Shown here piece after piece: positions 10,294 to 62,225 of a stretch of 64,000 nucleotides of DNA; the first letter of the stretch is position 1, and each line of letters begins with the position of its first letter. Location of the stretch: NCBI GenBank assembly GCA_964016885.1, contig OZ024741.1, positions 236,902,001-236,966,000 on the forward strand. Reading direction: 5' to 3'. The notes beneath the pieces were generated by a model. It saw only the letters and a list, made by a program, of their open reading frames with translations, ran no database searches and was not told where the DNA came from. This stretch comes from Eledone cirrhosa. Lineage: Eukaryota. Made by a program: the position numbers and the translations under genes.

Positions 10294-11808
10294 ATGATGG
10301 AAACCCTGCCTAGCGATGCCTCGATTCATAGCGCTATTGCGTCTAAACCTCAATTCTCACCTCTTCCCAACAGCATGGCACCTCATAGGATGCCACACAT
10401 GACAGACAAATCCTTCCATAATGAGATATACGGCAACCAATTCATGCAGGGCTATTATTTACAGACACACGGTTTGGTACATTCAAGCCAGAAGTTGTTC
10501 CATCCTGAAGTGTACGGCAAGCAATTTGCACAAAATTGTTATGTTCAAAACCATGAACGGATGCATAACATTGAGAAACAACCCCCAGCTGCACCACCCA
10601 CACCTCCAGTCTGTCCCAAACCACCAGTCACTCCAAATAAAATTGCACCAATAATTCCTAAAATTGAGGCACCGCCAGTTAAGCAGTTTCAGTGTGATTC
10701 TTGTCCCAAACAGTTTGCACGTAGAAATACATTGCAGCTGCATCAAAGACTGCACACTGGCGAGAAATTGTTCCATTGTGGTTTCTGCGATAAGCAGTTT
10801 ATTCATCGAGACAAGCTGCAAATCCATGAGAGGATACACACAGGAGAGAAACCTTTCCATTGTGAGTTTTGTCCAAAGCAGTTCTCTCGGAAGGACAAAC
10901 TGAAAATCCATCGGAGCACACATACGGGTGAGAAGCCGTTCCATTGCAATCTTTGCGATAAGCAATTTGTTCAGCGAAATAAGTTAAAAATTCATCAAAG
11001 AATCCATACAGGTGAAAAGCCGTTCCATTGTGAATTTTGTCCCAAACAGTTTTCTCGTGGTGACAAGCTGCAGTTGCATAGAAGGACACACACAGGTGAG
11101 AAGTTATTTCACTGTAACTACTGTCCGAAGCAATTTGTTCAGAAAGACAAACTGTTGATACATGAAAGGACGCATACTGGGGAGAAGCCTTTCCATTGCG
11201 AGATCTGCTCAAAGCAGTTTGCTCGTAGTGACCGTCTGCAAATCCATCGAAGAACACACACTGGGGAGAAGCCATTCCACTGCGACCTCTGTCCTAAGCA
11301 GTTTGTTCAACGATGTTATCTAAAAATTCACCGTCGTATACACACGGGTGAGAAACCTTTCCAGTGTGATGTTTGTTCCAAGCAGTTTGCTCGGAAAGAC
11401 AAACTCCAGATACATACTCGCACTCATACAGGGGAGAAACCTTTCCACTGCGACATCTGTAGGGAGCAGTTTGTGAGGAAAGCACAGCTGCTTGCACATA
11501 AGAAACACATGCATGCTGCTGTTGTTGATAAACCATTTCAGTGTGAGATTTGCTTGCAACAGTTCGCAGAGCGAGATGCAATGTTGATTCACCAGCGATC
11601 ACATTTGCAGGCCACATCGCCACCGCAGTGTGACATATGTACAAAGCAGTTTGCCACCATGGAGGAAATGCAAAATCACAAAAGAATACATAAACCTGTC
11701 CGGAACAATTTCTTGAAGCCAACTTCATGCAAGAATATCAAGGAGTACACACCAATGAGTACTCTGTTATGGCAGACTCTCTACCCAGGATTACAAAATC
11801 CTGTATAA
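10294..11808 (+). CDS. C2H2 zinc-finger protein ZNF-A (504 aa, 12 fingers, single coding exon)
   Basis: Intact ORF with 12 CxxC-x12-HxxxH units, TGEKPF/TGEKLF linkers and a Pro-rich pre-array segment; no KRAB/SCAN/BTB/ZAD domain recognisable. Confidence 0.95.
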   Translation: MMETLPSDASIHSAIASKPQFSPLPNSMAPHRMPHMTDKSFHNEIYGNQFMQGYYLQTHGLVHSSQKLFHPEVYGKQFAQNCYVQNHERMHNIEKQPPAAPPTPPVCPKPPVTPNKIAPIIPKIEAPPVKQFQCDSCPKQFARRNTLQLHQRLHTGEKLFHCGFCDKQFIHRDKLQIHERIHTGEKPFHCEFCPKQFSRKDKLKIHRSTHTGEKPFHCNLCDKQFVQRNKLKIHQRIHTGEKPFHCEFCPKQFSRGDKLQLHRRTHTGEKLFHCNYCPKQFVQKDKLLIHERTHTGEKPFHCEICSKQFARSDRLQIHRRTHTGEKPFHCDLCPKQFVQRCYLKIHRRIHTGEKPFQCDVCSKQFARKDKLQIHTRTHTGEKPFHCDICREQFVRKAQLLAHKKHMHAAVVDKPFQCEICLQQFAERDAMLIHQRSHLQATSPPQCDICTKQFATMEEMQNHKRIHKPVRNNFLKPTSCKNIKEYTPMSTLLWQTLYPGLQNPV

Positions 11809-19880: not shown

Positions 19881-21175
19881 CATCATCATTTTCATCATCA
19901 TCATTTTACATCCGCTTTTCCCTGCTTGCAAGGGTGGGACGGGTCTTATTCAGCACAGCATCTCTCCACTCGTCACGGTCCTTCGTCATCTCTACCGTGA
20001 GCTTCAATGATCTGAGGTCTGTTCTCATGACCTCTGCCCATGTTTTTCGTGGTCTATCTCTACCACGTCTTCATTCAACTGGTATTTCCTGGCACTTCTT
20101 CACCCATCGGTCATCCTCCATGCGCATCACATGTCCATACCACCTCAGTCTCCTCTCCCGTACACTACATTCTATCCCGCTCAGACACAGTTTCTTTCTC
20201 AACACATTCATGCTGGGTCGTTCACGCACATTGACATTGCACATCCAACGAAACATGCTTACCTCATTTCTCTCCAACCGTCGCATATCCTCTGCAGTTG
20301 CTGCCCGTGTCCCACTACCATGCAGCATCGCGCTCCTCACACAGGCATCATACAACCGGCCTTTCTTACGCAGGGAGAAACCCTTCTTCGTCAACAGAGG
20401 AAGCAGCTCCCTAAACTTCTTCCAACCCGTCCTTATTCTAGATACTATGGCCTCGGAACACCCTCTTCCCATGCTAATCTGATCTCCTAGGTACCGGAAG
20501 CTGTCCACCACTTCTATAGCGCCCTCCTGCATTTGAAAAATGTGTCTATCAATGCGACTTCTACTGTCTAATTTCCCTGTACATCTACTGCATACATATT
20601 TCTCCCTACCTGTTAGTTTGCCTGCTATCCTGATACATCTCTTGTGTACCCAGGATCTGCATTGTGTGCATTTTATAGAATTTATGCCAGTTCCTTTTCT
20701 GCATATCGAACATGGCCATTTCCCTGACGGAATCAGGGTTTTGTCCTCTTTTCTACTCATCAACACTTTTGTCTTAGCCAGGTTCACTCTCAGTTCTCTT
20801 GCTTCCAACTGCTGTTTCCATAGCCAGAATTTATTTTCTAGCTCCTCTACTGATTCTGCTATAAGAACCATATCGTCAGCATAGAGAACTTCCCATGGAC
20901 AGCCAGTCTTAAACTCCTCTATTATGGCTTGGAGGACTATAATGAACAAGAGTGGGCTGAGGACCGAGCCCTGATGTACTCCTACTTGTATCTGGAATTC
21001 CTCACTAAACTCCATTCCTATCCTGACTTTACTGAGAGTACCTCTGTACAAAGTTTGCACTGTCCTCACAAGCCATTCCTCAACACCTAGCTTCCTTAGG
21101 GACCACCAGATGACAGATCGGGGTACCCTATCAAAGGCCTTCTCTAGGTCAACAAAGGCTAAATATAGTGGCTTA
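19880..21175 (-). mobile_element. 5'-truncated RTE LINE, near-intact RT C-terminal ORF (20071-21069) with (GAT)n tail
   Basis: VGVHQGSVLSPLLF, LYADDMVL, FRYLGD and RRLRWYGHVMRM; 3' end cccgtcccacccttgcaagcagggaaaagcggatgtaaaatgatgatg. Confidence 0.95.
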
Positions 21176-21529
21176 TTTATATATATATTTATTAAAATAA
21201 CAGATTAAAGTTTAAGCAAAAAATCGCTGCTTTCTTTGGATTTTAATCTTTACATTTATTATTATTACTATATATATATACATAGGAAAATGTTCAAGAC
21301 CCCGACGGCAGAACTCAAGCCGTTTCAACGGCTATTTCTGGACATTTTCCTATTACCCACTCTACAACCCTAAGTACTGAGTACTCTGGTGCATTATGGT
21401 CAATCTGGTTCCTTACCACACTTTCTTCGTTATATATATATATATATAAAATAAAAAGTAAGCAAACCAATCAAAAAGGAAAAATTGGTGATTAGTTACG
21501 CATATTACAATATAGATTGCGTATATATA

Positions 21530-26360: not shown

Positions 26361-26764
26361 GCAGCCAGCACGTGGGACCCCATTTGCTCATAATACAGAG
26401 AGATGGGGATGGTGAGAGAGCTGGAGGCGATGACAGTAGGAGTTTGGCTTTTCTGTGTTCGGCGTCAGTTGTCCGTAAGGAGGTAAAAGTGGAATAGGAA
26501 CTTATCCACTTGTTTTTGTTGTTTTAATTTTCTTTCTTCTATATATATATATGTATAAGTAACCAGACAGTCCACCATTTATATTCCAAATGATATTTAC
26601 TAAAATTATAGTCATACATTACGAAATTTTAAATACATCAAACACTACTATCTCTAAAAATGTAAACTCTTAATAACTTTTCTTCTCGGACACGAAATCT
26701 GCAGTTCTCATAGGGAAGTTGTCATATACTTGACACATCGGAAGATTCCTCCCAACCCTTTATT

Positions 26765-27945
26765 TAGCAGGTTTTATGGCAAAACTCTCTGCAATGGTTG
26801 TGAAGGATGATCTTTTTAACTGGTTGAAGTCCTTCGTTCTCAGTCGAAGAGAGGCAGTCATGGTTCTAGGACAGCATTCTTCACCCTATGAGATGTCATC
26901 TGGTGTACCACAGGGATCTGTTCTTGGCTCCCTTTTGTTTGATGCATGTATTAATAATATAGATGCCAACTTAAAGAATGCCACAGTACTGAAATATGCA
27001 GATGACATCAAGCTGTACCTTGAGATAAAAAGGACAGATCCTGTATATTATAGATCTTTCCTGCAATCAGACCTGGACACAATGCAGCAATGGATCACAG
27101 ACTGGCAACTCAAGCTGGTTGTGGACAAGTGCACCACCTTCATTTTGGAAGGAAAACCCAGCGTTCACATACTCCCTCCACAACACTACTATCAAGAAGT
27201 CTTCTTGTGAACATGACCTGGGCATTACAGTCAGCAGTGATTTGCGTTGGACAAAGCACATCTCTAAAATTGTCAAGAAAGCTGAAGGTGTCTTGACATC
27301 ACTCTACAAGACCTTTGTCAGCCGCTCTCCAGCTATCTATTTAAAGCTGTATATAGCTATGGTACGGCCACACTTAGAGTTTGCATCACCAGTCTGGAAA
27401 CCCTATCTTGCTCAGAATTGACCTCCTGGAAACTGTTCAGAGACGTGCAACCAAGAGAATACCCTCCATCAGGCATCTACCATACTCTGAACACCTTGCT
27501 TCCCTGGGCATGGATACATTGAAACTCCGACGCCTGGCAACTGACTTGGTAAACAACCACAAAATTATTAACTATTTTGCCAACAACAACCCTGAGCACA
27601 TTTTTGAATTCTATGTGTCTAACACATGTGGGCATGCCTACAAATTGAGAAAACAGCACAGCTCCCATGACTTTCGGAAACATTTTTTCATGCTCTGAGT
27701 TGCTGAAGCATGAAACAAACTATCTTGTTAGCTGTCGAGATACTGCATCCTTTAAAACATGCTTCCTGAAATTCGCCAACACTACACTTGATATCCCCCC
27801 CCCCCTCCATACACATGCATGCAGACATGTATATCATGATTCATAAACTGTTCACTTTCCTAACATTTGTACATTATTCTATGCACCTTTGATGAGTTGT
27901 AGTGCACTTGAGTACTGTACACAATAATTTCATTATTATTATTAT
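26765..27945 (+). mobile_element. CR1-clade LINE, 5'-truncated, frameshifted, (ATT)n tail
   Basis: SGVPQGSVLGSLLF, KYADDIKLY, MVRPHLEFASPVW and LETVQRRATKRIP. Confidence 0.9.
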
Positions 27946-35353: not shown

Positions 35354-38300
35354 TTACTGGCTTTTTGGTGAAGAATTGCCACTTTGATGAATACTTTCTT
35401 CTTCTTCTTGTTTATTGTTTTTGTTCCAGTCATAATTCATCGTATTGGGAACGTTGGTCCAGCCAGAACTCAACATAGGGGGCAGAGGAAACTCTCTCAG
35501 CCAAATATAGTTGTTCTCCCAACTGGGGGGCATTTCATGTAAGAATGTTGTGGGAGCAGGTGAGGGGACAATTATTGGGGTCAACGAGTCTTTGCTGGAG
35601 TCGGATTTGATAGAAGCTGAAGAGTTTGAGTCTGTTCGACACGGCCCTTTTGGCAGTTCTGTGATGGGTTCTTGAATAGAATTAGTGTTTGATTTGTTAT
35701 TGATGCTGCTGTTGCTGTTGCTGTTGTGGTTGTTACTGCTGTTGTACATATTGCTATTATTACTGTTGTTGTTGCTGTTAGTGGTAGATGGGGTGGAAGT
35801 TGTGGTGCTGTTGTTGGTGCTGATGGTATTGTTGTTTGTTCGAATATTTGGTGGTGGTGGGGACTTAACTGAAAGCTGGTGTTTTGGAAAGTCTGAATGG
35901 TTATTCTGAAAGCAGTTGTGTTTCGTAAAGTTGTTGCGGTCCGTAAAATATTTGTTACAACCATCACAGTAAAACACCTGCTTCTTACCTATCTCTGTGT
36001 GTGTTTTCGTATGGGCTTTCAGAGCAGAACTGTGAGAGAATACTTCTCCACATAACTCACAATGATATGGGATGTCTCCAGTATGCAGTCGTTCATGGTT
36101 ACGGTGAAAGAAGCGGTTTGAGAACTCCTTGCCACAGAAGCGGCACAGGAGTAATTCTCCTGTGTGCATACGCATGTGATCATTTAGACAGTTCTTCTGA
36201 GAATATGACTTCCCACATATATCACAATGAAATGGTTTCTCACCAGTGTGTTTGCGTAGATGTGTCTTTAGGTTACCTCGCTGAGCAAATGCTTTATCAC
36301 AAAATGTACACTGGAATGGTTTCTCTCCTGTGTGTGTGCGCTCATGATTGCGAAGGAAAAACTGGTTAGCAAAAGATCTCTTGCAATAGCTACAATAAAA
36401 TAAGTCTCCTGTGTGTATCCTTTTGTGGTCATTTAGGCAATTTTTCTGGGCAAATGCCTTCCCGCAAATGTCACATATGTAATCCTTTTCCCCAGTATGT
36501 GTTTTCATGTGCATTTTTAAGTTACCTTGTAACGTAAATCGTTTTTGGCAGAATTCACATTCGTAAGACTTTTGGCCTGAGTGACTTAGTTCATGGCTTT
36601 TGAGGAAAAAGCGATTGGAAAATCCTTTGTTGCAAACAGGGCAGTAGAATAGCTGTCCAGTGTGGATTCTTTTATGATCGTTCAGGGTATTTTTCTGTGT
36701 AAATGCTTTATCACAGATGTCACATTGAAAGGGTTTCTCCCCAGTGTGTATTCTTAAATGTGTTTTGAGGTTTGTCCGGTGAGTGAAGGACTTGTCACAA
36801 ATTTCACAGGTAAATGGTTTCTCACCAGAGTGAATCATTTCATGATTTTTTAAGAAGAACCTGTTGTTAAATGTTTTATCGCACACTCCGCACGTATAGA
36901 CTTCATCCGAATTCTTATGGACTTGCTGATGACTTTTGAGAAAAAATTCATTAGAAAACTCTTTTTGACAAATGGAGCAGTAATACATGTTGCCTGTATG
37001 TATTCTTTTGTGGTCATTAAGGCAGTTTCTCTGAGCAAATCCTTTTCCACAAACATTACATATAAATGGTTTTTCTCCAGTGTGTATTCTCAAATGGATT
37101 TTTAAATTGCCTCTCTGGGAAAACTGCTTATCGCAAATATCACATTTGAATGGTTTCTCACCTGAATGGATTCTTGAATGGTTTTTCAGAAAGAATTTAT
37201 TTGAAAAGTTCTTGCCACAAATGCTGCAGTTAAAAGTCTCACCAGTATGTATCTGTTCATGACTTTTTAGAAAAAATTGGTTTGAGAAGCTTTTGCTGCA
37301 CAATTCACACTTGAACGTTTCACCTGTGTGTAGGTTTTTATGATCATTCAGACAGTTTCTTTGTGCAAATGCCTTACCACAAATGTCACAGACAAATGGC
37401 TTCTCCCCTGTGTGAATTCTAAGATGCGTCTTTAAATTCCCATTTTGTGAGAATTTCTTGTCGCAGAATTCACAAGCATATGGCTTTTCCCCACTATGAA
37501 TTCTGGAATGATTTTTCAAAAAGAACTTGTTGGAAAATGTCTTTCCACAGATTGTACATTTGAAAATCTCTCCTGACTTGTGGGTTTGTTCATGGCTTTT
37601 CAAGAAGAATTGGTTTGAAAATTCTCTTTTACAAATACCACACACGTAGGTGTCTCCTGTGTGAAGCCGTCTGTGGTCATTTAGACAATTCAACTGCGCA
37701 AAAGATTTGTCACACAGATCACATTGAAATGGTTTCTCACCTGTGTGAGTCCTGAGGTGAGTTTTAAGATTTGTACGCTGACCGAAAGCTTTGCCGCAAA
37801 AATCACATTTAAATGGCTTTTCTCCTGTATGGCTACGTTCATGATTTTGGAGAAAGAAGCGGTTTGCAAACGGTTTTTTGCAATAGCTGCAAAAAAACAA
37901 ATCTCCTGTATGTAGGCGCTTATGATCTTTGAGACTGCTCTTCTGAGCAAAGGATTTCCCGCATTCATCACAGCTAAACGGTTTCTCACCAGAATGTGTG
38001 CGAAGGTGAAGTTTTAGGTTAGTTAGATGACTAAATGTCTTTGAGCAAATACTACATCGGAACGGTTTGTCAACAGTAGATCCAGAAGAATTGATGTTCC
38101 CAGCATTGTAGTGTGGGGGCATATGAAGTGGTTTCACAGGTGACGGTGCTTGGAAACAAGAATCACTCTTGCCACCTCCAATCTGAGTACCTGTAATATT
38201 ATTGTTATTATGGTTGTGGCCATTGTTGTTGGTGTTGTTATTATGATTATTGTTATTAGTATTATTATTAATATTATTGTTGTTGTTGTTGTTATTATTA

Positions 38301-39121
38301 TTATTATTAATATGACTGTTGTTATTGATAGTATTATTGTGGCTATTGTTGTTGAGATGGAGATGATTGCTGTTGTTGCCAATGTTGTTGGGAGGGGTGT
38401 GGTTGGGAGGGGTGTGGTTGGGAGGGGTGTGGTTAGGAGGGGTGTGGTTGGGAGGGGTGTGGTTGGGAGGTGTGTGGTTGGGATGTGGGTGAGGGGGAGG
38501 AGGGGGAGGATGAGGTGGAGGGGGAGGAGGAGGGGAAGCTTCTTCTAAATGAATACGAGTGTGAATCTTCAAGAAGAACTCACAAGAAAATACCTTCCCA
38601 CAATATTTGCATGGGAAGTCACCCTTTTGTGTTTTTGCAGAAGTGTCTATGCGGTTATTAGAGACTGGCTCTGGAGAAGAAAAGCTTTTACCTGGTATAT
38701 TAAGGACTCGATAGTTTTTTGGTTCTCCCTCATTGTGTATTCGTGGAGATTCAGAGGAGGAGGCAGCTCCTGCCCCTTGGTAAACACTTTTCCTAGAGAC
38801 ATCAGGAATACGCAAATTCCTGTCTGTATTGACATTGTCAGAACTGGCAAACCTGATTGTATTGGTGTTATTTTTATAGCTAGGGCTGGGCGACGGACTT
38901 GCAGATGGCATAGTGACCCGGTTTGGAGTTATATTTTGGATATTGTTAGAGATACTGAGTCCTTGGTATTGGTCTTTCCAAAGAAGATTCGGGAAATACC
39001 CTGTGTCATTTACAGGTGTTCGTTCAGGTATTTTCAGCTGGTTTATCTGGTAAATAGGCTGCCCATATATAGTACACTGGGTATTTTCAAGGGTGGGGAA
39101 GGTTGGCTGACCTGGATACAT
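35354..39121 (-). CDS. C2H2 zinc-finger protein ZNF-B (1255 aa; 1 isolated + 25 arrayed C2H2 fingers + terminal C2HC-like finger; Pro/His/Asn low-complexity regions)
   Basis: Intact ORF; ACCATG context with an in-frame stop 16 codons upstream; fingers counted from the translation. Confidence 0.95.
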   Translation of the reverse strand: MYPGQPTFPTLENTQCTIYGQPIYQINQLKIPERTPVNDTGYFPNLLWKDQYQGLSISNNIQNITPNRVTMPSASPSPSPSYKNNTNTIRFASSDNVNTDRNLRIPDVSRKSVYQGAGAASSSESPRIHNEGEPKNYRVLNIPGKSFSSPEPVSNNRIDTSAKTQKGDFPCKYCGKVFSCEFFLKIHTRIHLEEASPPPPPPPHPPPPPPHPHPNHTPPNHTPPNHTPPNHTPPNHTPPNHTPPNNIGNNSNHLHLNNNSHNNTINNNSHINNNNNNNNNNNNINNNTNNNNHNNNTNNNGHNHNNNNITGTQIGGGKSDSCFQAPSPVKPLHMPPHYNAGNINSSGSTVDKPFRCSICSKTFSHLTNLKLHLRTHSGEKPFSCDECGKSFAQKSSLKDHKRLHTGDLFFCSYCKKPFANRFFLQNHERSHTGEKPFKCDFCGKAFGQRTNLKTHLRTHTGEKPFQCDLCDKSFAQLNCLNDHRRLHTGDTYVCGICKREFSNQFFLKSHEQTHKSGEIFKCTICGKTFSNKFFLKNHSRIHSGEKPYACEFCDKKFSQNGNLKTHLRIHTGEKPFVCDICGKAFAQRNCLNDHKNLHTGETFKCELCSKSFSNQFFLKSHEQIHTGETFNCSICGKNFSNKFFLKNHSRIHSGEKPFKCDICDKQFSQRGNLKIHLRIHTGEKPFICNVCGKGFAQRNCLNDHKRIHTGNMYYCSICQKEFSNEFFLKSHQQVHKNSDEVYTCGVCDKTFNNRFFLKNHEMIHSGEKPFTCEICDKSFTHRTNLKTHLRIHTGEKPFQCDICDKAFTQKNTLNDHKRIHTGQLFYCPVCNKGFSNRFFLKSHELSHSGQKSYECEFCQKRFTLQGNLKMHMKTHTGEKDYICDICGKAFAQKNCLNDHKRIHTGDLFYCSYCKRSFANQFFLRNHERTHTGEKPFQCTFCDKAFAQRGNLKTHLRKHTGEKPFHCDICGKSYSQKNCLNDHMRMHTGELLLCRFCGKEFSNRFFHRNHERLHTGDIPYHCELCGEVFSHSSALKAHTKTHTEIGKKQVFYCDGCNKYFTDRNNFTKHNCFQNNHSDFPKHQLSVKSPPPPNIRTNNNTISTNNSTTTSTPSTTNSNNNSNNSNMYNSSNNHNSNSNSSINNKSNTNSIQEPITELPKGPCRTDSNSSASIKSDSSKDSLTPIIVPSPAPTTFLHEMPPSWENNYIWLREFPLPPMLSSGWTNVPNTMNYDWNKNNKQEEEESIHQSGNSSPKSQ
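38390..38482 (-). repeat. Coding 15-bp minisatellite encoding (NHTPP)x6, next to poly-Pro and poly-Asn tracts
   Basis: ggaggggtgtggttg repeated on the + strand. Confidence 0.9.
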
Positions 39122-42086: not shown

Positions 42087-42134
42087 TTTAACAAAATAGC
42101 AACAGGGTGTTATAACAGTGTGTCAATATGGTGT

Positions 42135-45100
42135 CAGTTATGGTGATAATGACAGTGTACAGTGTAGTTGGTGGTGATGGTGGTGATAATGACAGTGTAC
42201 AGTGTAGTTGGTGGTGATGGTGGTGATAATGACCAGTGTACAGTGGTGGTTGTGATGGTGGTGATAATGACAGTGTACAGTGGTGGTTGTGATGGTGGTG
42301 ATAATGACCAGTGTACAGTGTAGTTGGTGGTGATGGTGGTGATAATGACCAGTGTACAGTGGTGGTTGTGATGGTGGTGATAATGACAGTGTACAGTGTA
42401 GTTGGTGGTGATGGTGGTGATAATGACCAGTGTACAGTGGTGGTGGTGATGGTGGTGATAATGACCAGTGTACAGTGGTGGTTGTGATGGTGGTGATAAT
42501 GACAGTGTACAGTGTAGTTGGTGGTGATGGTGGTGATAATGACCAGTGTACAGTGGTGGTGGTGATGGTGGTGATAATGACCAGTGTACAGTGGTGGTTG
42601 TGATGGTGGTGATAATGACCAGTGTACAGTGGTGGTTGTGATGGTGGTGATAATGACCAGTATACAGTGGTGGTTGTGATGGTGGTGATAATGACCAGTG
42701 TACAGTGGTGGTTGTGATGGTGGTGATAATGACCAGTATACAGTGGTGGTTGTGATGGTGGTGATAATGACCAGTGTACAGTGGTGGTTGTGATGGTGGT
42801 GATAATGACCAGTGTACAGTGGTGGTTGTGATGGTGGTGAGAATGGCCAGTGTACAGTGGTGGTTGTGATGGTGGTGAGAATGGCCAGTGTACAGTGGTG
42901 GTTGTGATGGTGGTGATAATGACAGTGTACAGTGGTGGTTGTGATGGTGGTGATAATGACCAGTGTACAGTGGTGGTTGTGATGGTGGTGAGAATGGCCA
43001 GTGTACAGTGGTGGTTGTGATGGTGGTGATAATGACCAGTGTACAGTGGTGGTTGTGATGGTGGTGATAATGACCAGTGTACAGTGGTGGTTGTGATGGT
43101 GGTGATAATGACCAGTGTACAGTGGTGGTTGTGATGGTGGTGAGAATGGCCAGTGTACAGTGGTGGTTGTGATGGTGGTGATAATGACAGTGTACAGTGG
43201 TGGTTGTGATGGTGGTGATAATGACCAGTGTACAGTGGTGGTTGTGATGGTGGTGATAATGACCAGTGTACAGTGGTGGTTGTGATGGTGGTGAGAATGG
43301 CCAGTGTACAGTGGTGGTTGTGATGGTGGTGATAATGACCAGTGTACAGTGGTGGTTGTGATGGTGGTGATAATGACCAGTGTACAGTGGTGGTTGTGAT
43401 GGTGGTGATAATGACAGTGTACAGTGTAGTTGGTGGTGATGGTGGTGATAATGACCAGTATACAGTGGTGGTTGTGATGGTGGTGATAATGACCAGTGTA
43501 CAGTGGTGGTTGTGATGGTGGTGATAATGACAGTGTACAGTGTAGTTGGTGGTGATGGTGGTGATAATGACCAGTGTACAGTGGTGGTTGTGATGGTGGT
43601 GATAATGACAGTGTACAGTGTAGTTGGTGGTGATGGTGGTGATAATGACCAGTATACAGTGGTGGTTGTGATGGTGGTGATAATGACCAGTATACAGTGG
43701 TGGTTGTGATGGTGGTGATAATGACCAGTGTACAGTGGTGGTTGTGATGGTGGTGATAATGACCAGTGTACAGTGGTGGTTGTGATGGTGGTGAGAATGG
43801 CCAGTGTACAGTGGTGGTTGTGATGGTGGTGATAATGGCCAGTGTACAGTGGTGGTTGTGATGGTGGTGATAATGACCAGTGTACAGTGGTGGTTGTGAT
43901 GGTGGTGAGAATGGCCAGTGTACAGTGGTGGTTGTGATGGTGGTGAGAATGGCCAGTGTACAGTGGTGGTTGTGATGGTGGTGAGAATGGCCAGTGTACA
44001 GTGGTGGTTGTGATGGTGGTGATAATGACCAGTGTACAGTGGTGGTTGTGATGGTGGTGATAATGACCAGTGTACAGTGGTGGTGGTGATGGTGGTGATA
44101 ATGACCAGTATACAGTGGTGGTTGTGATGGTGGTGATAATGACCAGTATACAGTGGTGGTTGTGATGGTGGTGATAATGACCAGTGTACAGTGGTGGTTG
44201 TGATGGTGGTGATAATGACCAGTGTACAGTGGTGGTTGTGATGGTGGTGATAATGACCAGTGTACAGTGGTGGTTGTGATGGTGGTGATAATGACCAGTG
44301 TACAGTGGTGGTTGTGATGGTGGTGATAATGACCAGTGTACAGTGGTGGTTGTGATGGTGGTGATAATGACCAGTATACAGTGGTGGTTGTGATGGTGGT
44401 GATAATGACCAGTATACAGTGGTGGTTGTGATGGTGGTGATAATGACCAGTGTACAGTGGTGGTTGTGATGGTGGTGATAATGACCAGTATACAGTGGTG
44501 GTTGTGATGGTGGTGATAATGACCAGTGTACAGTGGTGGTTGTGATGGTGGTGATAATGACCAGTGTACAGTGGTGGTTGTGATGGTGGTGATAATGACC
44601 AGTGTACAGTGGTGGTTGTGATGGTGGTGATAATGACCAGTGTACAGTGGTGGTTGTGATGGTGGTGATAATGACCAGTATACAGTGGTGGTTGTGATGG
44701 TGGTGATAATGACCAGTGTACAGTGGTGGTTGTGATGGTGGTGATAATGACCAGTATACAGTGGTGGTTGTGATGGTGGTGATAATGACCAGTGTACAGT
44801 GGTGGTGGTGATGGTGGTGATAATGACCAGTGTACAGTGGTGGTTGTGATGGTGGTGATAATGACCAGTGTACAGTGGTGGTTGTGATGGTGGTGAGAAT
44901 GGCCAGTGTACAGTGGTGGTTGTGATGGTGGTGATAATGACCAGTGTACAGTGGTGGTTGTGATGGTGGTGATAATGACCAGTGTACAGTGGTGGTTGTG
45001 ATGGTGGTGATAATGACCAGTGTACAGTGGTGGTTGTGATGGTGGTGATAATGACCAGTGTACAGTGGTGGTTGTGATGGTGGTGATAATGACCAGTGTA

Positions 45101-48100
45101 CAGTGGTGGTTGTGATGGTGGTGATAATGACCAGTGTACAGTGGTGGTTGTGATGGTGGTGAGAATGGCCAGTGTACAGTGGTGGTTGTGATGGTGGTGA
45201 TAATGACCAGTGTACAGTGGTGGTTGTGATGGTGGTGATAATGACCAGTGTACAGTGGTGGTTGTGATGGTGGTGATAATGACCAGTGTACAGTGGTGGT
45301 TGTGATGGTGGTGATAATGACCAGTATACAGTGGTGGTTGTGATGGTGGTGATAATGACCAGTGTACAGTGGTGGTTGTGATGGTGGTGATAATGACCAG
45401 TGTACAGTGGTGGTTGTGATGGTGGTGATAATGACCAGTGTACAGTGGTGGTTGTGATGGTGGTGATAATGACCAGTATACAGTGGTGGTTGTGATGGTG
45501 GTGATAATGACCAGTGTACAGTGGTGGTTGTGATGGTGGTGATAATGACCAGTATACAGTGGTGGTTGTGATGGTGGTGATAATGACCAGTGTACAGTGG
45601 TGGTTGTGATGGTGGTGATAATGACCAGTGTACAGTGGTGGTTGTGATGGTGGTGAGAATGACCAGTATACAGTGGTGGTTGTGATGGTGGTGATAATGA
45701 CCAGTGTACAGTGGTGGTTGTGATGGTGGTGATAATGACCAGTGTACAGTGGTGGTTGTGATGGTGGTGAGAATGGCCAGTGTACAGTGGTGGTTGTGAT
45801 GGTGGTGATAATGACCAGTGTACAGTGGTGGTTGTGATGGTGGTGATAATGACCAGTATACAGTGGTGGTTGTGATGGTGGTGATAATGACCAGTATACA
45901 GTGGTGGTTGTGATGGTGGTGATAATGACCAGTGTACAGTGGTGGTTGTGATGGTGGTGATAATGACCAGTATACAGTGGTGGTTGTGATGGTGGTGATA
46001 ATGACCAGTGTACAGTGGTGGTTGTGATGGTGGTGATAATGACCAGTATACAGTGGTGGTTGTGATGGTGGTGATAATGACCAGTGTACAGTGGTGGTTG
46101 TGATGGTGGTGATAATGACCAGTGTACAGTGGTGGTTGTGATGGTGGTGATAATGACCAGTATACAGTGGTGGTTGTGATGGTGGTGATAATGACCAGTG
46201 TACAGTGGTGGTTGTGATGGTGGTGATAATGACCAGTGTACAGTGGTGGTTGTGATGATGGTGAGAATGACCAGTGTACAGTGGTGGTTGTGATGGTGGT
46301 GATAATGACCAGTATACAGTGGTGGTTGTGATGGTGGTGATAATGACCAGTATACAGTGGTGGTTGTGATGGTGGTGATAATGACCAGTGTACAGTGGTG
46401 GTTGTGATGGTGGTGATAATGACCAGTGTACAGTGGTGGTTGTGATGATGGTGAGAATGACCAGTGTACAGTGGTGGTTGTGATGGTGGTGATAATGACC
46501 AGTATACAGTGGTGGTTGTGATGGTGGTGATAATGACCAGTATACAGTGGTGGTTGTGATGGTGGTGATAATGACCAGTGTACAGTGGTGGTTGTGATGG
46601 TGGTGATAATGACCAGTGTACAGTGGTGGTTGTGATGGTGGTGAGAATGGCCAGTGTACAGTGGTGGTTGTGATGGTGGTGATAATGACCAGTGTACAGT
46701 GGTGGTTGTGATGGTGGTGATAATGACCAGTGTACAGTGGTGGTTGTGATGGTGGTGATAATGACCAGTGTACAGTGGTGGTTGTGATGGTGGTGATAAT
46801 GACCAGTATACAGTGGTGGTTGTGATGGTGGTGATAATGACCAGTATACAGTGGTGGTTGTGATGGTGGTGATAATGACCAGTGTACAGTGGTGGTTGTG
46901 ATGGTGGTGATAATGACCAGTGTACAGTGGTGGTTGTGATGGTGGTGATAATGACCAGTATACAGTGGTGGTTGTGATGGTGGTGATAATGACCAGTATA
47001 CAGTGGTGGTTGTGATGGTGGTGATAATGACCAGTGTACAGTGGTGGTTGTGATGGTGGTGATAATGACCAGTGTACAGTGGTGGTTGTGATGGTGGTGA
47101 GAATGGCCAGTGTACAGTGGTGGTTGTGATGGTGGTGATAATGACCAGTGTACAGTGGTGGTTGTGATGGTGGTGATAATGACCAGTGTACAGTGGTGGT
47201 TGTGATGGTGGTGATAATGACCAGTGTACAGTGGTGGTTGTGATGGTGGTGATAATGACCAGTATACAGTGGTGGTTGTGATGGTGGTGATAATGACCAG
47301 TATACAGTGGTGGTTGTGATGGTGGTGATAATGACCAGTGTACAGTGGTGGTTGTGATGGTGGTGATAATGACCAGTGTACAGTGGTGGTTGTGATGGTG
47401 GTGAGAATGGCCAGTGTACAGTGGTGGTTGTGATGGTGGTGATAATGACCAGTGTACAGTGGTGGTTGTGATGGTGGTGATAATGACCAGTGTACAGTGG
47501 TGGTTGTGATGATGGTGAGAATGGCCAGTGTACAGTGGTGGTTGTGATGGTGGTGATAATGACCAGTGTACAGTGGTGGTTGTGATGGTGGTGATAATGA
47601 CCAGTGTACAGTGGTGGTTGTGATGGTGGTGAGAATGACCAGTGTACAGTGGTGGTTGTGATGGTGGTGATAATGGCCAGTGTACAGTGGTGGTTGTGGT
47701 AATGACAAGTGTACAGTGGTGGTTGTGGTGGTATGGCAAGTGTATAGTGGAGGTTGTGGTGGTGGTATGGCAAGTGTATAGTGGAGGTTGTGGTGGTGGT
47801 ATGGCAAGTGTATAGTGGAGGTTGTGGTGGTGGTATGGCAAGTGTATAGTGGAGGTTGTGGTGGTGGTATGGCAAGTGTACAGTGGTGGTTGTGGTGGTG
47901 GTATGGCAAGTGTATAGTGGTGGTGGTGGTATGGCAAGTGTACAGTGGTGGTTGTGGTGGTGGTATGGCAAGTGTACAGTGGTGGTGGTGGTATGGTAAG
48001 CATGTGGTGGTGGTGACACGTGTACAGTGGTAGTAGTGGTAAGTGCATAGTGGTGACAAGCGTACAGTGGTGGTGGTGGTGACAGGTCTACAGTGGTAGT

Positions 48101-48545
48101 GACAAGTGTTCAGTGGTGGTTGTGGTAGTATGGCAAATGTACAGTGGTTGTGGTGGTATAGCAAGTGTACAGTGGTGGTGGTGATGTTAACAAGTGTACA
48201 GTGGTGGTGGTATGGTAAGCATGTGGTGGTGGGGTAAGTGTACAGTGGTTGTGGTGGTGTGGCAAGAGTACATTTTGTGGTGGTGGTTATGGTGGTATGG
48301 CAAGAGTACAGTGGTTGTGGTGGTATGGCAAGTGTACAGTGGTGGTTATGATGGTATAGCAAGTGTACAGTGGTGGTGGTGGTGGTGGTAGTGGTATGGT
48401 AAGCGTGTGGTGGTGGTGGTGATGGTAAGTGTACAGTGGTTGTGGTGGTGTGCAAGTGTACAGTGGTGGTGGTAATGGCAAATATACAGTGGTTGTGGTG
48501 GTATGGTAAGTGTAGTGTGGTGGTGGTGTTGGTATGGTAAGTGAA
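42135..48545. repeat. 38-bp satellite array (~145 homogeneous copies, 42135-47700) grading into degenerate GT-rich units
   Basis: Unit agtgtacagtggtggttgtgatggtggtgataatgacc; the translation repeats every 38 aa (3 units). Confidence 0.98.
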
Positions 48546-48779
48546 TAATGGAGTCATAGCATGAAGAAGTGTCCTGGGTCGATGGGTTGTTTTTTGAGAG
48601 GAGGTTAATGTTCATTTCTTTCATTGGCCCCGGAGAAGCTATAAATTTTTGGGAAAGTTGATTATCTCATTCCACTAATGCCTAAATGGCACTAAAGGAC
48701 ATTTAATCTAGCCCTTTACCATTTTCATCACTCTACCACCCTTATTCCATTTCGCCATGTTATGTTCACTTCTCTCTGC

Positions 48780-54991: not shown

Positions 54992-57705
54992 CTAGCTGGC
55001 CCGTCCGGCTGGTGCCCGGCTACCATTGGCATGTTCTACGGCATCCAGATATATAGCTGACGTACCTAGCTTCGCTTGGATAAACAGACGATAAGCCGTC
55101 TGTGAAGTATAGTATTGCTGTTGAATACATATAGTATAGTATTACTGTTGAAAATATATAGTATAGTATTACTGTTGAAAATATATAGTATAGTATAACT
55201 GTTGAAAACATAGTATAGTATTACTGTTGAAAATGTATAGTATAGTATTACCGTTGAAAATATATAGTATAGTATAGTATTACTGTTGAAAACATATAGT
55301 ATAGTATAGTATTACTGTTGAAAATATATAGTATAGTATAGTATTACCATTGAAAATATATAGTATGAGTGTTGAAAACGTATAGTATAGTATTACTGTT
55401 GAAAATATATAGTATTACTGTTGAAAATGTATAGCATAGTATTACTGTTGAAAATATATAGTATAATATTATTGTTGAAAACATAGTATAGTATTACTGT
55501 TGAAAATATATGGTACAGTATTACTGTTGAAAATATATAGTACAGTATTACTGTTGAAAACAGTATAGTATTACTGTTGAAAATATATAGTACAGTATTA
55601 CTGTTGAAAATATATAGTACAGTATTACTGTTGAAAATATATAGTATAGTATAACTGTTGAAAATATATAGTATAGTATCACTGATGAAAATATATAGTA
55701 TAGTATTACTGTTGAAAATATATAGTATAGTATCACTGATGAAAATATATAGTACAGTATTACTGTTGAAAATATATAGTATAGTATAGTATTACTGTTG
55801 AAAATATATAGTATAGTATCACTGTTGAAAATATATAGTACTAGCTGGCCCATCTGGCTGGTGCTCGGCTAGGTATCCCAACATTTTATCTTTTCAGGAA
55901 TCCCCCCTACACTCCAGTGCAAAGATACAGCACGCCCTCTCAAGTCAGTGAGGGGGGGGGGGGGGGTTAACGTGCTCTGATGTTGGGTTTTAATAGTTTT
56001 TAGGATTCCCCATTTAAGCAGCCAGTAATTTAAAGAAAATTGATAGTTACAACAATAAAGGCTGAACAGAGAACAAATTTTTTAACAAACAATAATTTGT
56101 ACAACCATAATGGAAATTCCAAGTAACAGAAAATATTTAAATTACATTGTTAGAGCCTCAGAGTATACAATATTTTTGTTCGGCCCTCCGGAGCAAAGAT
56201 CAAGAGATTGTTTGGCAAGCTCACCCTAGAGCATCCTACATACAACTGACCATGGGAGAATCACTGATTTCGTAGCTCGTCTTGTGGCGAAGCTCTGTAG
56301 ATGTTGACCTCTGGACACTCCTATCAGGAGCAGGTAAGCTGTAGTGACTTAGAGGTCTACCACCAATCTCCAGGACACTGTTTTCAAGACAAATGAAAAC
56401 GACATCGTATGTTACGTTTGGATTGTGTCTGCGTGTGCGGTGGAGGATGTCCTCAGCTAGACTTTCGCGGTGGTTGTTCCACAGTGCAAGAGGGTCGGCG
56501 AAATCGCAGTTGTGCAACATAATAGCAAAAAGTTTTCGCAACTGAAAAGGGACTTTAGAAGTTACTGCTTCTTGCAGGGTGAGGTGCCAATGGCTGCCAT
56601 CGTGTAACATACCAAGCATCTGGCAAGCCAAACGGTAAGTGAAACATTGATGGCCATTGATGGTTGTCATATCTTGGAAAGACTGTGGTCCTCTAACCTC
56701 GAACAATAACAATGATAATAAGCCATCTGTGCTTTCATGAAATAAATAGGTTTTTGTTTTTAAGTATGCAAAAATATTTGTACACGAATATATATATTAA
56801 AATAACAGATTAAAGTTTAAGCAAAGAATCGCTGCTTTCACCCTTAACGGGATCTTCTGAAACTAAAAAAATCCATCTGTGAACGCAGAAGTAAATATTT
56901 CGAAAAACGTTATCTAATGCAGACAGACATACATACAGAGACATATTATAAGGGTGCTACGTTATAGTTATGCAGACTAAAAAAAAGAGGGGAATGTTGT
57001 GCGACGCCATAAGAAAAAGTGAGGAATGACGTATAACCGGAAGTGTTGACATTTGAAATTTTAAAGAAGTGAATATTTAAATAATTGTTTCTATTTTTGG
57101 CACAAGGCCAGCAATTACCCAGTGCATTACTGGTACTTTATTTTATCAACCCCGTAAGGATGAAAGGCAAAGTTAACCTCGGCAGGATTTGAACTCAGAA
57201 TGGCAAGGGCCGTAACTCTATACGTCAAAGCATGGCGTCCGACCCTCTACCTATACTGCCAATCCATCGTCTTTAATCTTTTAACAAAATTCAGTAGACA
57301 AAAATACCCTCACTTTTTTACTTGGAAAAAGTTACATCTATGGTGGAAATTTGGTGCTGTTTGGTCCAGCCGTTTGGCGGAAAGTATGTTACCTACACAC
57401 AGCCGTCAGCTTTATAGTATAGATAGTATTAATGTTGAAAATATATAGTACAGTATTACTGTTGAAAATATATAGTACAGTACAGTATTACTGTTGAAAA
57501 TATATCGTACAGTACAGTATCACTGTTGAAAATATATAGTATAGTATTACTGTTGAAAATATGTACACGAATATATAATTAATTAAAAGTTGGTTAGAAG
57601 CAAAGTCAATGAAGACAGGCAGACATACAGACAGATATTACAAGGGCACGACGTTATAGCTATGTAACTATCTAAAAAGACAGAATAAGAAAGAGAGAGG
57701 AATGT
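54992..57705 (-). mobile_element. Outer non-autonomous Helitron carrying a ~23-30-bp satellite
   Basis: Minus-strand 3' end gccgggcaccagccggacgggccagCTAG|T; satellite tagtatagtattactgttgaaaatata at 55105-55840 and 57424-57562; 57563-57700 resembles the inner copy at 56780-56990. Confidence 0.7.
55841..57423 (-). mobile_element. Inner Helitron, internally deleted, with Rep-Hel fragments and a SINE insertion (57085-57270)
   Basis: 5' A|TCTATACTATAAAG at 57423 and 3' CTAG|T at 55841; ORF 56236-56712 (VRGPQSFQD...ACQMLGMLHD...QLRKLFAIML) and the helicase tail VGCSRV...TKNIVYSEAL. Confidence 0.85.
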
Positions 57706-58649: not shown

Positions 58650-60080
58650 AGAGCTAGAAAAAGATGACCTACCACTGCAGAACTGTCGATCGCAGTGCTA
58701 GGTCAATGCTGCCATAATGGCTGGGCACCGCAGTGGGGTTCAGCAGAGAATGAGAGAGAAGAAGAATTTGATTCACTTCGTTAATTGCGATAACCATTCA
58801 CTTAATCTAGCTGGTCTTCGTGCAGCCAAAAACGATTCTGCTATGATGAACTTTTTCAGTTGCATTGACTCGTTACTCAACTTTTTTCTCATTCAACACA
58901 ACGATGGGAAGCCCTTAAAGAAGTTGCTCCAGTGGTTGTTAAATATCCTTCCAACACGCGGTGGAGTGCTAGATGTACCGCAGTCAGACTGGTGGCGAAT
59001 TATTTGACGCTGATTGTTCAAGTTCTCGAAAAAATTAGTGATGATGAAACAGAGACATGCGAGAGTAGAAATGATGCCAGTAATCTCCATAATCGGATAC
59101 TGAGTTATGAATTCCTGAACTTGATTGGATTCTGGAACACGATTCTCTCATGAATTGACAGGGCTCAAAAGAGACTTCAAGATCCAAGAATGAATTTTCA
59201 CGATGCTGCAGCTGATATAGGAGCCCTTCAACTTTATTTTAAAGAAGAAGGAACCTTCTTAATCCATGAGTCTCTTGAAATGGGCTTCGACCTCTGCCAG
59301 AAATGGAATGGCGATTTTCCGAGGAGGCGAGGAAGACGACAAACCAATACCGAAATTACTGAGGACGTCGAGGTGGCTGTCAGAAAAGAGATAGAGAGAG
59401 CAATGCAAAGTTCACTCAATCGTCTTCAAACAGAAATAGAAGAACGGTTTATCCGACTTAAGGAAACCGACTCGTTTTTGCTTTCTTCTTGATGTCAACT
59501 ATCTGTTTTATTTGGCTGCTCCTGATAACCTTGTCCTTAAACAAAGGTGCAACAGTCTTGCGGAACTATACAACTCCGACATCGACGGAGAGCAATTGTA
59601 TGAGGAAATCTTGGACTGCCGATCTTTGCTGGCTACTAGGACAGCTGACCCAATTTTAAAGCCGGAGGCACTTCTCCAATTCATCATACAATATGGCGAT
59701 GAATGTGTTTTTCCCAATTTGCGAATCAGCATTCAAATAATGTTGACGATTTCTATTTCAATTGCCAGTTATGAGAGGTCGTTCAGCAAGCTTAAGCTAA
59801 TACATTCGTATTTGCGAACCTCAATGGGCCAAAAACGGCTGACTGACCTCGCCCTTTTGAGTGTAGAAATCGAAGAGTTTGAACGAACTGATTTCGAGGA
59901 AATTATCAATCAGTTTGCCTCATTAAAAGCCCGAAAAATCAAATTGTAACCGGTTTTTGTTTTTTTATTATAAATTCTACCGCAATTTTGTCTTTGTGGA
60001 TCTTGACTTTTTGATTGGAGGAGGGGGGGGGGGGCAATTTTGATGCTTACCCTGGGCGCCGTTTACCCTAGCTACACCAC
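58650..60080 (+). mobile_element. hAT DNA transposon, 3' half (ZMYM1-like transposase pseudogene)
   Basis: NAAIMAGHRSGVQQR, CDNHSLNL, TRWSAR and the hATC dimerisation motif ERSFSKLKLIHSYLRTSMGQKRLTDLALLSVE; TIR-like end ccctagctacaccac. Confidence 0.9.
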
Positions 60081-60094
60081 ATATATATGACTAC

Positions 60095-62225
60095 TAAATG
60101 AGGAGAATAAATGGGAAAAAGATAGTCTCCCCAAATCAATCCAATAGAGGGACCAGCAGTGCAAGTTGAAGGTAATATAATAAGTAAGGCAATCAAAGAT
60201 ATGAAGACAAGCAAGGCAGCTGGGCCTTTGGAGATAGTTGCTGAGATGTTGAAAGCATCTGGAATGGTAGGACACACTATGGTCACCCGGATAGTGAACC
60301 AAGTAATACAGAATGGGACCATACCAAATGACTGGCGTAGCAGCATCATTAACTGCTACAAGGGTAAAGGAGATGCCCTAGATAGGGGAAACTATAGAGG
60401 CATTAAATTGATTGACCAGGTCATGAAGGTCACAGAAAGAGTTATAGCGCAACTAATCAGAGAGCGAATTGATCTAGATGAAATGCAGTTTGAGTTTGTG
60501 TCAGGTAAAAGTACCACAGACGCTCTTTTCCTTGTACGACAACTACGAGAGAAGTACCTAGCTAAAAGTAAACCCCTATACTTAGCTTTTGTTGACTTGG
60601 AGAAAGCCTTTGACAGTCCCCTGCTCCATTATCTGGTGGGCTCTTAGAAAACTAGGTGTTGATGAATGGCTTGTGAGAGCTATACAAGCCATGTATAAAG
60701 AAACAGTCAGTAAGGTTAGAATTAACAATGAATATAGTGAAGAATTTAGTGTAAAAGTTGGTGTTCATCAAGACTCTGTTCTTAGCCCCCTCCTATTTAT
60801 TATTGCCCTTCATGCTATAACAGAGGAGTTCAAGACCAGCTACCCATGGGAACTTCTATACACAGATGATCTAACTCTCATAGCTGAATCAATGGTTGAA
60901 CTAGAGAAGAAATTCCAAACATGGAAGCATGGCCTAGAATCAAAAGGCCTTAAAGTTAACTTGTCTAAGACTAAAGTTCTAGTTTGTAGAAAGGAAAATA
61001 GGGTACAGGTACCCTCTGGCAAAAGGCCATGCTCAGTGTGTAGGAAAGGAGTAGGCAGAAATTCCATATTATGTCCCAAATGCAAACTATGGGTACATAA
61101 AAGATGTAGTGGGATCACAGGTAAGCTATCTAAGAACGTGGATTTTATATGTGGCCGATGCTCAAGTGCAATAAGTAGCAAGTGCCCACAGGATACTAGC
61201 TCCTTCTATTGCCCAGATGGTTCTATAGAAATAGTGGACACCTTCCGTTACCTGGGTGACAAAATCAGCAGTGGTGGAGGGTGCTCTGAAAGTACAGTAG
61301 TCAGAGTCAGAACGGGATGGAAAAAGTTCAGAGAGCTTATACCACTATTGACCACTAAAGGTTTCTCTCTAAAAATGAAAGGCAGATTGTATGATGCCTG
61401 CATACGAACAGTAATGTTACATGGCAGTGAGACATAGGTTTGTGTGCAGAGGATCTGCGCAGACTGGAGAGGAACGAAGCATTCATACTCCGTTGGATGT
61501 GTAATAGTAATATACGCAAACGGCAAAGCATAAATGAACTAAGTGAGAAATTAGGAATAAGAGGGATCAGATGCGGTTTACTCGAAAGAAGACTACGTTG
61601 GTATGGTCACGTGATGCGCATGAAAGACGACAGTTGTATAAAAAAGTGTAGGGCGATCAAAATTGATGCAAGTTATGGAGTAGGTAGACCCAGAAAAACC
61701 TGGAAGATTTGATAAATTCCGACCTCACACACTTACACTTCTCTAAGACAATGTCACTGGACCGAGAGCTTTGGTGCTACGCAGTAATACAGAAGACCCG
61801 CCTTGCCTATGTACAAAGCGAAACCTACAGTCAGTAGGCACCTCCTAACCAAATATATACCCCATCCCACTACTCCTACTCCACCCTACCCCCACTCCCA
61901 CCAACACCACCCTTTCTCTGTAAAGTTATGTTGGTACCACAACATCCAGTCCAAAATAAATGAGGTCGTGTAGGTGTCACAACAAAAAAACACAGTCTAC
62001 GCCGTAATGTGGCCGTGTAGGTAACACGGTAAAAACCTTCCGGTTCCACACTGTAAACGTGGTTGGTGTTAGGAAGGGCATCCAGACGTAGAAAACCTGC
62101 CAGACAGCCCTATACGTGCGAGACATGGTCACCCGACCAACCTTGCCTCAAGTAGGACAAATTCCCGTCTAAACCCATGCTAGCGTGGAAGATAGATGTT
62201 AAACGCTGATGATGATGATGATGAA
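60095..62225 (+). mobile_element. RTE LINE, 5'-truncated, few disablements, with 3' UTR and (GAT)n tail
   Basis: ORFs 60159-60647, 60589-61437 and 61440-61712 give RT motifs (YKGKGDALDRGNYRGIKL, FVDLEKAFD, LYTDDL, RRLRWYGHVMR); tail aaacgctgatgatgatg. Confidence 0.95.

What the first reader, a model, noticed from the sequence alone, without database searches (positions are those of the whole stretch)
35912..38068. ZNF-B finger array is a higher-order repeat (ABC/ABCC) with atypical double-Phe fingers and programmed short linkers
Seen: 24 consecutive fingers fall into three classes. A is (Q/H/L)x(G/T)NLK, B is Qx(N/S)(C/S/T)L(N/K)D, and C is NxFF(L/H)x(S/N). The order is ABC-ABCC-ABCC-ABCC-ABC-ABC-ABC. 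Every B-to-C linker is one residue short (TGDLF, TGDTY, TGETF, TGNMY, TGQLF, TGELL), whereas A-B and C-A linkers have canonical length. Framework residues have diverged but the helix codes have not, which implies selection. Phe at both +2 and +3 is outside the usual DNA code, and the isolated N-terminal finger (CEFFLKIH) has it too. Inference: a modular reader in which AB pairs (roughly CnA-nAA) are spaced by C fingers that stack on RNA or modified bases, or bind protein, tuned to a periodic target.
Basis: partly seen in the sequence, partly recalled or inferred. Interest (0 to 1): 0.75.

Follow-up and report, generated by a model that had tools for sequence, protein, structure and literature searches.

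The report
Ancient patterned zinc-finger array in octopods
An octopod gene-regulator gene carries 24 zinc fingers in a strict three-type repeating order, including a rare finger with two phenylalanines behind a shortened linker; the pattern is old, shared with nine neighbouring gene copies and held fixed by selection, so the protein likely reads adenine-rich DNA through a finger-junction design not found in our literature searches.

Summary
Confirmed. A 1255-aa reading frame (35354-39121, minus strand) holds 24 C2H2 fingers ordered ABC-ABCC-ABCC-ABCC-ABC-ABC-ABC; 7 of 7 B-to-C linkers are one residue short. Phe-Phe at +2/+3 occurs in 1 of 3347 background fingers. Both refutation tests fail: silent sites between modules are saturated (pS 0.69-1.08), and orthologues in other species are collinear with 74 of 80 listed differences silent. 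The FF finger marks ten loci in one 3.5-Mb cluster, inside a wider coleoid subfamily with a shared Trp-rich tail. The deeper rule is a junction: all 52 short linkers precede a finger with Phe/Ile/Val at +2, usually after Asp at +5/+6, the residues that meet at the shared base pair on DNA. B-C keeps DNA-docking boundary pairs and models like DNA-bound pairs; C-C is the loose joint. Most likely an A/T-rich DNA reader in which C stays docked; RNA, modified-base or protein binding has no support here but is not excluded. No target identified. New variant of a known kind; the scan's earlier notes hold no look-alike.

The parts
35354..39121 (-). Uninterrupted coding frame, 1255 aa (P0001), 27 zinc fingers with no intron needed
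   Evidence: start Met matches the MYP/MYS starts of paralogues
38549..38611 (-). Isolated N-terminal C2H2 finger with Phe-Phe at +2/+3
   Evidence: five paralogues (L024-L027, L031) also begin with an FF finger
38198..38536 (-). Pro/His/Asn low-complexity spacer, likely disordered
   Evidence: disorder inferred from composition
36083..38056 (-). 24-finger higher-order array ABC-ABCC-ABCC-ABCC-ABC-ABC-ABC with eight 6-residue linkers (seven B-to-C, one C-to-C)
35999..36061 (-). 25th array finger, ordinary helix outside the three classes
   Evidence: only silent changes listed in orthologues
35912..35968 (-). Terminal CCHC-type finger
   Evidence: similar terminal fingers in L021-L023, L025, L029
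35486..35542 (-). Trp-rich C-terminal motif (W-E-x-N-Y-x-W-x-R) that defines the subfamily; candidate cofactor-binding motif (inferred)
   Evidence: no Pfam family other than zinc-finger-type models hit the protein

Best explanation
This is an old, selectively frozen C2H2 zinc-finger gene of a coleoid subfamily whose protein likely binds A/T-rich double-stranded DNA in repeated A-B-C units, with the two-Phe finger likely staying docked beside finger B through a co-adapted short-linker junction. Shown: the order, the short linkers, saturation of silent sites, purifying selection across species, and the coupling of short linker, preceding +6 residue and following bulky +2 residue. Inferred: A (Gln-1, Asn+3) reads nAA and B (Gln-1, Asp+6) reads C-n-A by the standard code; Asp+6 of B and Phe+2 of C meet at the overlap base pair, and the linker that lacks one residue sets the geometry that lets the bulky +2 fit; C then contributes van der Waals contact to thymine methyls or DNA shape rather than hydrogen-bond readout. 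C-to-C joints (Gln at +9, linker 6-14 residues) likely act as hinges that divide the array into separately docking blocks. The Trp-rich tail would recruit a cofactor.
For: Age and selection: modules 58-68% identical, pS 0.69-1.08; same in six paralogues (pS 0.83-1.05, code more conserved than framework), the reverse of four unrelated ZNF genes of this genome (pS 0.19-0.39, code more variable). One contig of organism F spans 35892-38107 with 158 differences and no gap; 37 of 40 listed rows silent in each and 55/56, including silent changes in two FF codons; none at -1/+2/+3/+6; dN/dS at most 0.13 for the 861-nt stretch even if all 17 unseen differences were replacements. The 325-aa array of paralogue L024 is identical in Octopus vulgaris/sinensis and O. 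bimaculoides records. Junction rule: 52 of 52 fingers after a 6-residue linker have Phe/Ile/Val at +2 versus 23 of 148 after 7; 35 of 52 short linkers follow Asp at +5/+6, 13 follow an FF finger. +6 and next +2 share the overlap base pair, and 9/-2 pairs RS/RA are the main DNA-binding mode (PMC7293014 passages); RS/RA at 6 of 7 B-C and 5 of 7 A-B junctions, 0 of 3 C-C, background 703 of 2743. Lys/Arg kept at the phosphate position in 44 of 44 C fingers; net charge 2.1 versus 2.3 background. AlphaFold2 B-C pair (pLDDT 89, pTM 0.56) superposes on DNA-bound pairs of PRDM9, ZBTB24, SALL4 at 2.0-2.4 A over 53-55 residues, Z 7.6-8.1. No Arg at -1/+6 in 223 family fingers versus 29% in background; Gln-1 in 148, Asn+3 in 125. 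Precedents for hydrophobic or aromatic residues in DNA-bound fingers (PMC12264921).
Against: No binding data. The junction counts come from related genes and are not independent events. AlphaFold2 is trained on DNA-bound pairs and pTM is modest, so the pose may be memorised; the five-finger model has pTM 0.45 and no reliable overall shape. An aromatic at +2 can push a finger off the bases (ZBTB7A F3, TFIIIA F1), which favours a passive C. No solved FF finger was seen among the PDB hits whose alignments were printed. The code-predicted 9-bp-period site is not enriched over its reversed control (9964 versus 30028). Expression is not shown: the RNA label of runs X16 and X19 is a guess.
Confidence: 0.6

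Rival explanations
1. A-B pairs read DNA while C fingers sit off the bases as groove-spanning spacers whose exposed Phe pair binds a protein partner or another copy of the protein.
For: Spacer fingers are common in long arrays and TFIIIA F6 has short linkers (PMC12264921). The lone N-terminal finger also has FF and cannot dock in tandem. C framework in the window gene has drifted (framework-only call wrong for 6 of 10 C fingers) while N-x-F-F is fixed. Hydrophobic helix faces in dimerising fingers of the Ikaros/Hunchback type are recalled, from no call.
Against: Mode-1 boundary pairs and basic residues are kept at B-C; in paralogues a Gln/Leu-x-Ile-Asn finger, which has an adenine-reading Asn+3, takes the same slot after the short linker, suggesting the slot contacts DNA.
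Confidence: 0.22
2. The array binds RNA, or DNA or RNA with modified adenine, with the Phe pair stacking on unpaired or modified bases.
For: Two adjacent exposed aromatics next to adenine-reading fingers; strict conservation; some C2H2 arrays bind RNA (a WT1-RNA structure appears among fold matches).
Against: Nothing specific: 15 of 23 array linkers are canonical length, boundary pairs are DNA-type, and best structural matches are DNA complexes. No test of RNA binding was possible.
Confidence: 0.13
3. The periodicity is a neutral by-product of recent internal duplication or gene conversion.
For: The order did arise by module duplication, and paralogues show other orders of the same finger types.
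Against: Silent sites saturated in 7 of 7 genes tested; no indel and almost only silent change between species.
Confidence: 0.02

Closest known systems
Coleoid-wide C2H2 expansion clusters (Holzinger et al. 2025, PMC12513265; parts 1-2 of 7 read, whole text term-searched)
   Same: Clustered multi-finger genes shared by octopus and cuttlefish; this subfamily has members in Octopus, Argonauta and Acanthosepion records.
   Different: That paper has no occurrence of 'linker', 'motif' or 'phenylalanine'; finger classes and periodicity are not described. Which of its four coleoid clusters this is was not tested; its supplements and Dryad files were not seen.
ZFY/ZFX/ZNF711 two-finger repeat (PMC11030341, passages seen)
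   Same: Old, conserved higher-order periodicity of finger types with class-specific signatures; 'jumping-linker' recognition was proposed (reference title seen).
   Different: Period two with alternating His spacing, versus period three or four here with constant His spacing, a shortened linker and an FF helix; no homology implied.
Snail family finger with Trp+2/Leu+3 after a 5-residue linker (sequence printed in PMC7293014)
   Same: Short linker directly before a finger with aromatic +2 and hydrophobic +3 in a protein assayed as a DNA binder.
   Different: Occurs once, has Arg at -1, and is not repeated; here the junction recurs 8 times per gene and has no Arg.
SALL4 and Zfp568 A/T-rich readers; spacer fingers of CTCF, TFIIIA, ZBTB24, HIC2 (PMC12264921, parts 1-3 of 6 read)
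   Same: Small and hydrophobic residues contact thymine methyls; Gly+2/Asn+3 helix resembles class A; some fingers only span grooves.
   Different: Those use non-aromatic residues or one aromatic at +2; the parts read describe no Phe pair at +2/+3.
Young, diversifying ZNF arrays (KRAB-ZNF, FiNZ-ZNF, PMC10547256 passages; other clusters of this genome)
   Same: Clustered poly-finger genes with internal duplication.
   Different: Opposite evolution: here contact residues are frozen and silent sites saturated, so an arms race with young transposons is unlikely.

Membership tests
Classical C2H2 (Kruppel-type) poly-zinc-finger protein | CX2CX12HX3H fingers with core Phe and +4 Leu, beta-beta-alpha fold | tested here: met
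   (PF00096, PF13465)
Classical C2H2 (Kruppel-type) poly-zinc-finger protein | Canonical 7-residue TGEKP-type linkers throughout | tested here: not met
   8 of 23 linkers in the 24-finger array have 6 residues, one has 8
Classical C2H2 (Kruppel-type) poly-zinc-finger protein | Sequence-specific DNA binding | not testable with these tools
   only indirect signs
Coleoid-wide C2H2 expansion | Relatives in both octopods and decapodiforms, none outside | tested here: met
   Trp-tail profile: 10 hits among 1.84 billion representatives, 9 genuine; all those with names are Octopus, Argonauta or Acanthosepion. Some hits are unnamed.
Coleoid-wide C2H2 expansion | FF fingers themselves present in squid or cuttlefish | tested here: inconclusive
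   short linkers are present in the cuttlefish record P0124; the cuttlefish-cluster fragment most like FF-bearing L024/L027 (P0123) lacks the part where FF fingers would lie
ZFY/ZFX two-finger repeat family | Odd/even fingers with alternating HX3H/HX4H spacing | tested here: not met
   all 24 fingers HX3H, period 3-4 (definition)
Tandem CWCH2 two-finger unit (Zic/Gli/Zap1) | Trp between the two Cys of adjacent fingers sharing one core | tested here: not met
   no Trp in any CX2C of the array; definition from abstract listing of PMC2837044
KRAB/SCAN/BTB/ZAD effector-domain ZNFs | N-terminal effector domain | tested here: not met
   Pfam scan found only zinc-finger-type models; an unseen upstream coding exon is not excluded
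RNA-binding C2H2 proteins (TFIIIA F4-6, JAZ type) | RNA binding | not testable with these tools
   PF12171 scores on the whole protein but no single stretch passes

The most novel reading that the evidence does not exclude
Coleoids evolved a new zinc-finger recognition unit, a shortened linker plus a Phe-Phe helix, that departs from the triplet code: it stacks on unpaired, modified or edited adenines (RNA or DNA) or shifts the reading register, and a small conserved gene family combines it with adenine-reading fingers in different periods to read A-rich repeats.
Probability: 0.15. Interest if true: 0.8.

Novelty: new variant of a known kind. Interest (0 to 1): 0.52.

Why it matters
How linkers, aromatic helix residues and neighbouring fingers alter C2H2 readout, and which fingers act as spacers, is stated as unresolved in a 2024 review (PMC12264921). 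This family offers 52 natural copies of one non-standard junction in several finger orders, so the question can be tested with three- or four-finger constructs. It also marks out, among more than a thousand cephalopod C2H2 genes, a small old set with frozen contact residues and its own tail motif: good candidates for conserved coleoid regulators rather than transposon trackers.

Tried and rejected
Homologue search with the finger array returned only generic long ZNFs in the 120 listed of 7912; these served as background. Search with the N-terminal 195 residues found nothing at E<=0.001 among 722 candidates, so no named record of this exact gene was found. A loose genome pattern for the FF helix was swamped by T-runs (562 versus 303 control); a tighter one worked but requires Lys and misses some C fingers. 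ESM Atlas on the O. vulgaris paralogue gave generic zinc-finger clusters only. Complex prediction of two copies of the C-C pair with zinc gave no verdict (score 0.00); it is not evidence either way. Target hunt: period-9 pattern 9964 matches versus 30028 for the reversed control, the listed hits being degenerate CAA/CCA/CTA repeats; period-8 pattern 1084 versus 711, listed hits mostly CCACAACA-type repeats; neither identifies a target. The five-finger model has no confident global shape. Framework-only classification recovered just 16 of 24 classes. Literature searches without relevant result: (FF helix strings with 'zinc finger': 0 papers); some searches gave the papers cited. The library lacks most subscription papers. 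No finger-level tree was built, so the origin of C from the Ile-Asn finger is untested.

Full report
The observation. The interval lies in one open frame on the minus strand, 1255 residues from the Met at 39121. Parsing gives a lone finger, a Pro/His/Asn-rich spacer, 24 fingers in the order ABC-ABCC-ABCC-ABCC-ABC-ABC-ABC, one ordinary finger and a terminal CCHC finger. All seven B-to-C linkers have six residues between His and Cys; all A-to-B and C-to-A linkers have seven; the three C-to-C linkers have 7, 6 and 8. The order has probability 1.8e-8 under shuffling. In 120 non-cephalopod poly-finger proteins FF at +2/+3 occurs in 1 of 3347 fingers and six-residue linkers in 30 of 2786 junctions. 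Pfam finds only zinc-finger-type models.

Age and selection. The seven ABC cores are 58-68% identical in DNA with pS 0.69-1.08, that is saturated; the Phe codons are a mix of TTT and TTC; in C fingers pN is 0.05 at -1/+2/+3/+6 and 0.51 in the framework. Because classes are named by the helix this contrast is partly circular, so I sought outside tests. Contigs of other organisms were laid on the array. One contig of organism F covers 35892-38107 with 158 differences and no gap; organisms B, C and H cover it in pieces. Of the 40 difference rows listed (276 more not shown) 37 are silent, and the rest are two framework replacements. A second laying on 36800-37660 with organisms F and J listed 40 rows (43 not shown), again 37 silent, with silent changes inside two FF codons and one Asn-1 codon and three framework replacements. 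For organism F, 33 of 50 differences were seen, 31 silent; dN/dS is about 0.014, at most 0.13. No listed change hits -1, +2, +3 or +6.

The family. A search of the own genome found close relatives at C2:233.7-237.2 Mb and C7:8.8-9.1 Mb. Of 20 regions fetched, nine carry FF fingers: seven intact genes (L023-L027, L029, L031) and two broken copies 99% identical to L023 (L021, L022). A tight pattern gave 64 genome matches, 44 in this cluster and 20 elsewhere against 21 for the control, so FF fingers of this form are confined to the cluster. Paralogues use the same finger types in other orders (for example ABC-ABCC, or D-A-B-C with an Ile-Asn finger D). Fifteen genes were treated as the wider family; 13 of them show a Trp-rich tail motif. 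A profile of that motif hit 10 of 1.84 billion representatives, one a spurious repeat; the named ones are Octopus, Argonauta and the cuttlefish Acanthosepion. The 325-residue array of L024 is identical in O. vulgaris/sinensis and O. bimaculoides records while its N-terminus differs at 9 of 87 sites; this makes the genome likely an octopod's (inference). A cuttlefish record has the short linker; FF fingers in decapodiforms were not seen because the relevant record is a fragment. In all seven FF genes tested silent sites are saturated and code positions are more conserved than framework, the reverse of four unrelated ZNF genes of the same genome. Earlier scan notes on other clusters of this genome describe young, diversifying arrays, which fits that contrast; none resembles this locus.

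The junction rule. Defined by linker alone, 52 of 52 fingers after a six-residue linker have Phe (35), Ile (16) or Val (1) at +2, against 23 of 148 after seven residues. Of the 52 short linkers 35 follow a finger with Asp at +5 or +6 and 13 follow an FF finger; FF fingers with Ile at +6 are followed by a short linker in 12 of 17 cases, those with Asn in 0 of 21. These are related copies, not independent events, but the coupling has outlasted silent-site saturation and reshuffling. Position +6 of one finger and +2 of the next contact the same base pair, and positions 9 and -2 set inter-finger geometry, RS and RA being the most plastic mode (PMC7293014, passages). In the window gene RS/RA stands at 6 of 7 B-C, 5 of 7 A-B, 3 of 6 C-A and 0 of 3 C-C junctions, against 703 of 2743 in background. 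So B-C looks like an engaged joint and C-C like a hinge.

What it binds. No finger of 223 in the family has Arg at -1 or +6 (29% in background); Gln-1 (148) and Asn+3 (125) dominate. By the standard code (PMC12264921, parts 1-3 read) that means adenine-rich, guanine-poor sites; A would read nAA and B C-n-A (inference). C fingers keep Lys/Arg at the phosphate-contact position in 44 of 44 and an ordinary charge. AlphaFold2 folds every finger normally, placing the Phe pair at the start of the helix. The B-C pair superposes on DNA-bound pairs of PRDM9, ZBTB24, SALL4, Kaiso and Gfi-1 at about 2-2.5 A; this may reflect training bias and pTM is only 0.56. The review shows three outcomes for an aromatic at +2, including displacement of the finger from the bases, and several spacer fingers with no predictive signature. 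Snail carries a five-residue linker before a Trp+2/Leu+3 finger, the nearest precedent for the junction. A search for the code-predicted periodic site gave about 10,000 matches, the listed ones in degenerate CAA/CCA/CTA repeats, but fewer than the reversed control; no target is established.

Verdict. The feature is real, old and selected. It works most likely as an A/T-rich DNA reader with a non-standard junction (0.6); a spacer or protein-binding role for C (0.22) and RNA or modified-base binding (0.13) remain open and untested. It is a C2H2 poly-finger gene of a coleoid expansion (PMC12513265), and higher-order finger repeats are known from ZFY, but the FF finger, the short-linker rule and the tail motif were not found in ten literature searches of an incomplete library; supplements of the cephalopod papers were not read and may list these genes. 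Novelty: new variant of a known kind. Interest 0.52.

Noticed in passing
P0127, P0138, P0139, P0141, P0142 (unnamed Logan proteins, 99% identical to cuttlefish record P0124), alignment A3: Five positions vary among five otherwise identical records, all compatible with A-to-G change (Ser/Gly, Gln/Arg at helix +1, Asn/Ser at helix +3 of an A-type finger, His/Arg at a zinc ligand, Lys/Glu); the genome-derived record and the octopus orthologue keep the first residue. Possible A-to-I recoding of a recognition helix in this subfamily; codons not seen.
   Followed up: partly
window 10231-11808 (+): A second intronless ZNF gene whose first nine parsed fingers alternate Arg and His/Gln at -1 (a two-finger period) with Leu-Gln/Lys-Ile/Leu helix ends and canonical linkers; no Trp tail.
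   Followed up: no
L021, L022, L023 (G000:C2:233.72-233.86 Mb): Three 99% identical copies about 60 kb apart; two carry shared in-frame stops and damaged fingers, so recent duplicates of this family decay while the parent stays intact.
   Followed up: partly
L034, L039 (G000:C766 and C7:9.13 Mb): Relatives with 10-11 near-uniform Gln-x-Ala-Asn-Leu helices and canonical linkers, which by the code would read a monotone nAA repeat.
   Followed up: no
window 35486-35542 (-) and 12 paralogues: Conserved Trp-rich tail motif with no Pfam match and only coleoid named hits; candidate new effector motif.
   Followed up: partly
window 42088-48600: A 6.5-kb tandem repeat, open in three frames of the minus strand for about 2000 codons, about 3 kb upstream of the gene's start.
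   Followed up: no
window 20071-21204 (-), 60126-61437 (-), 26734-27698 (+), 56236-56796 (-), 58702-59949 (+): Fragments that look like LINE reverse transcriptases, a Helitron piece and a hAT-type transposase; labels from recall of the translations, not from a family scan.
   Followed up: no
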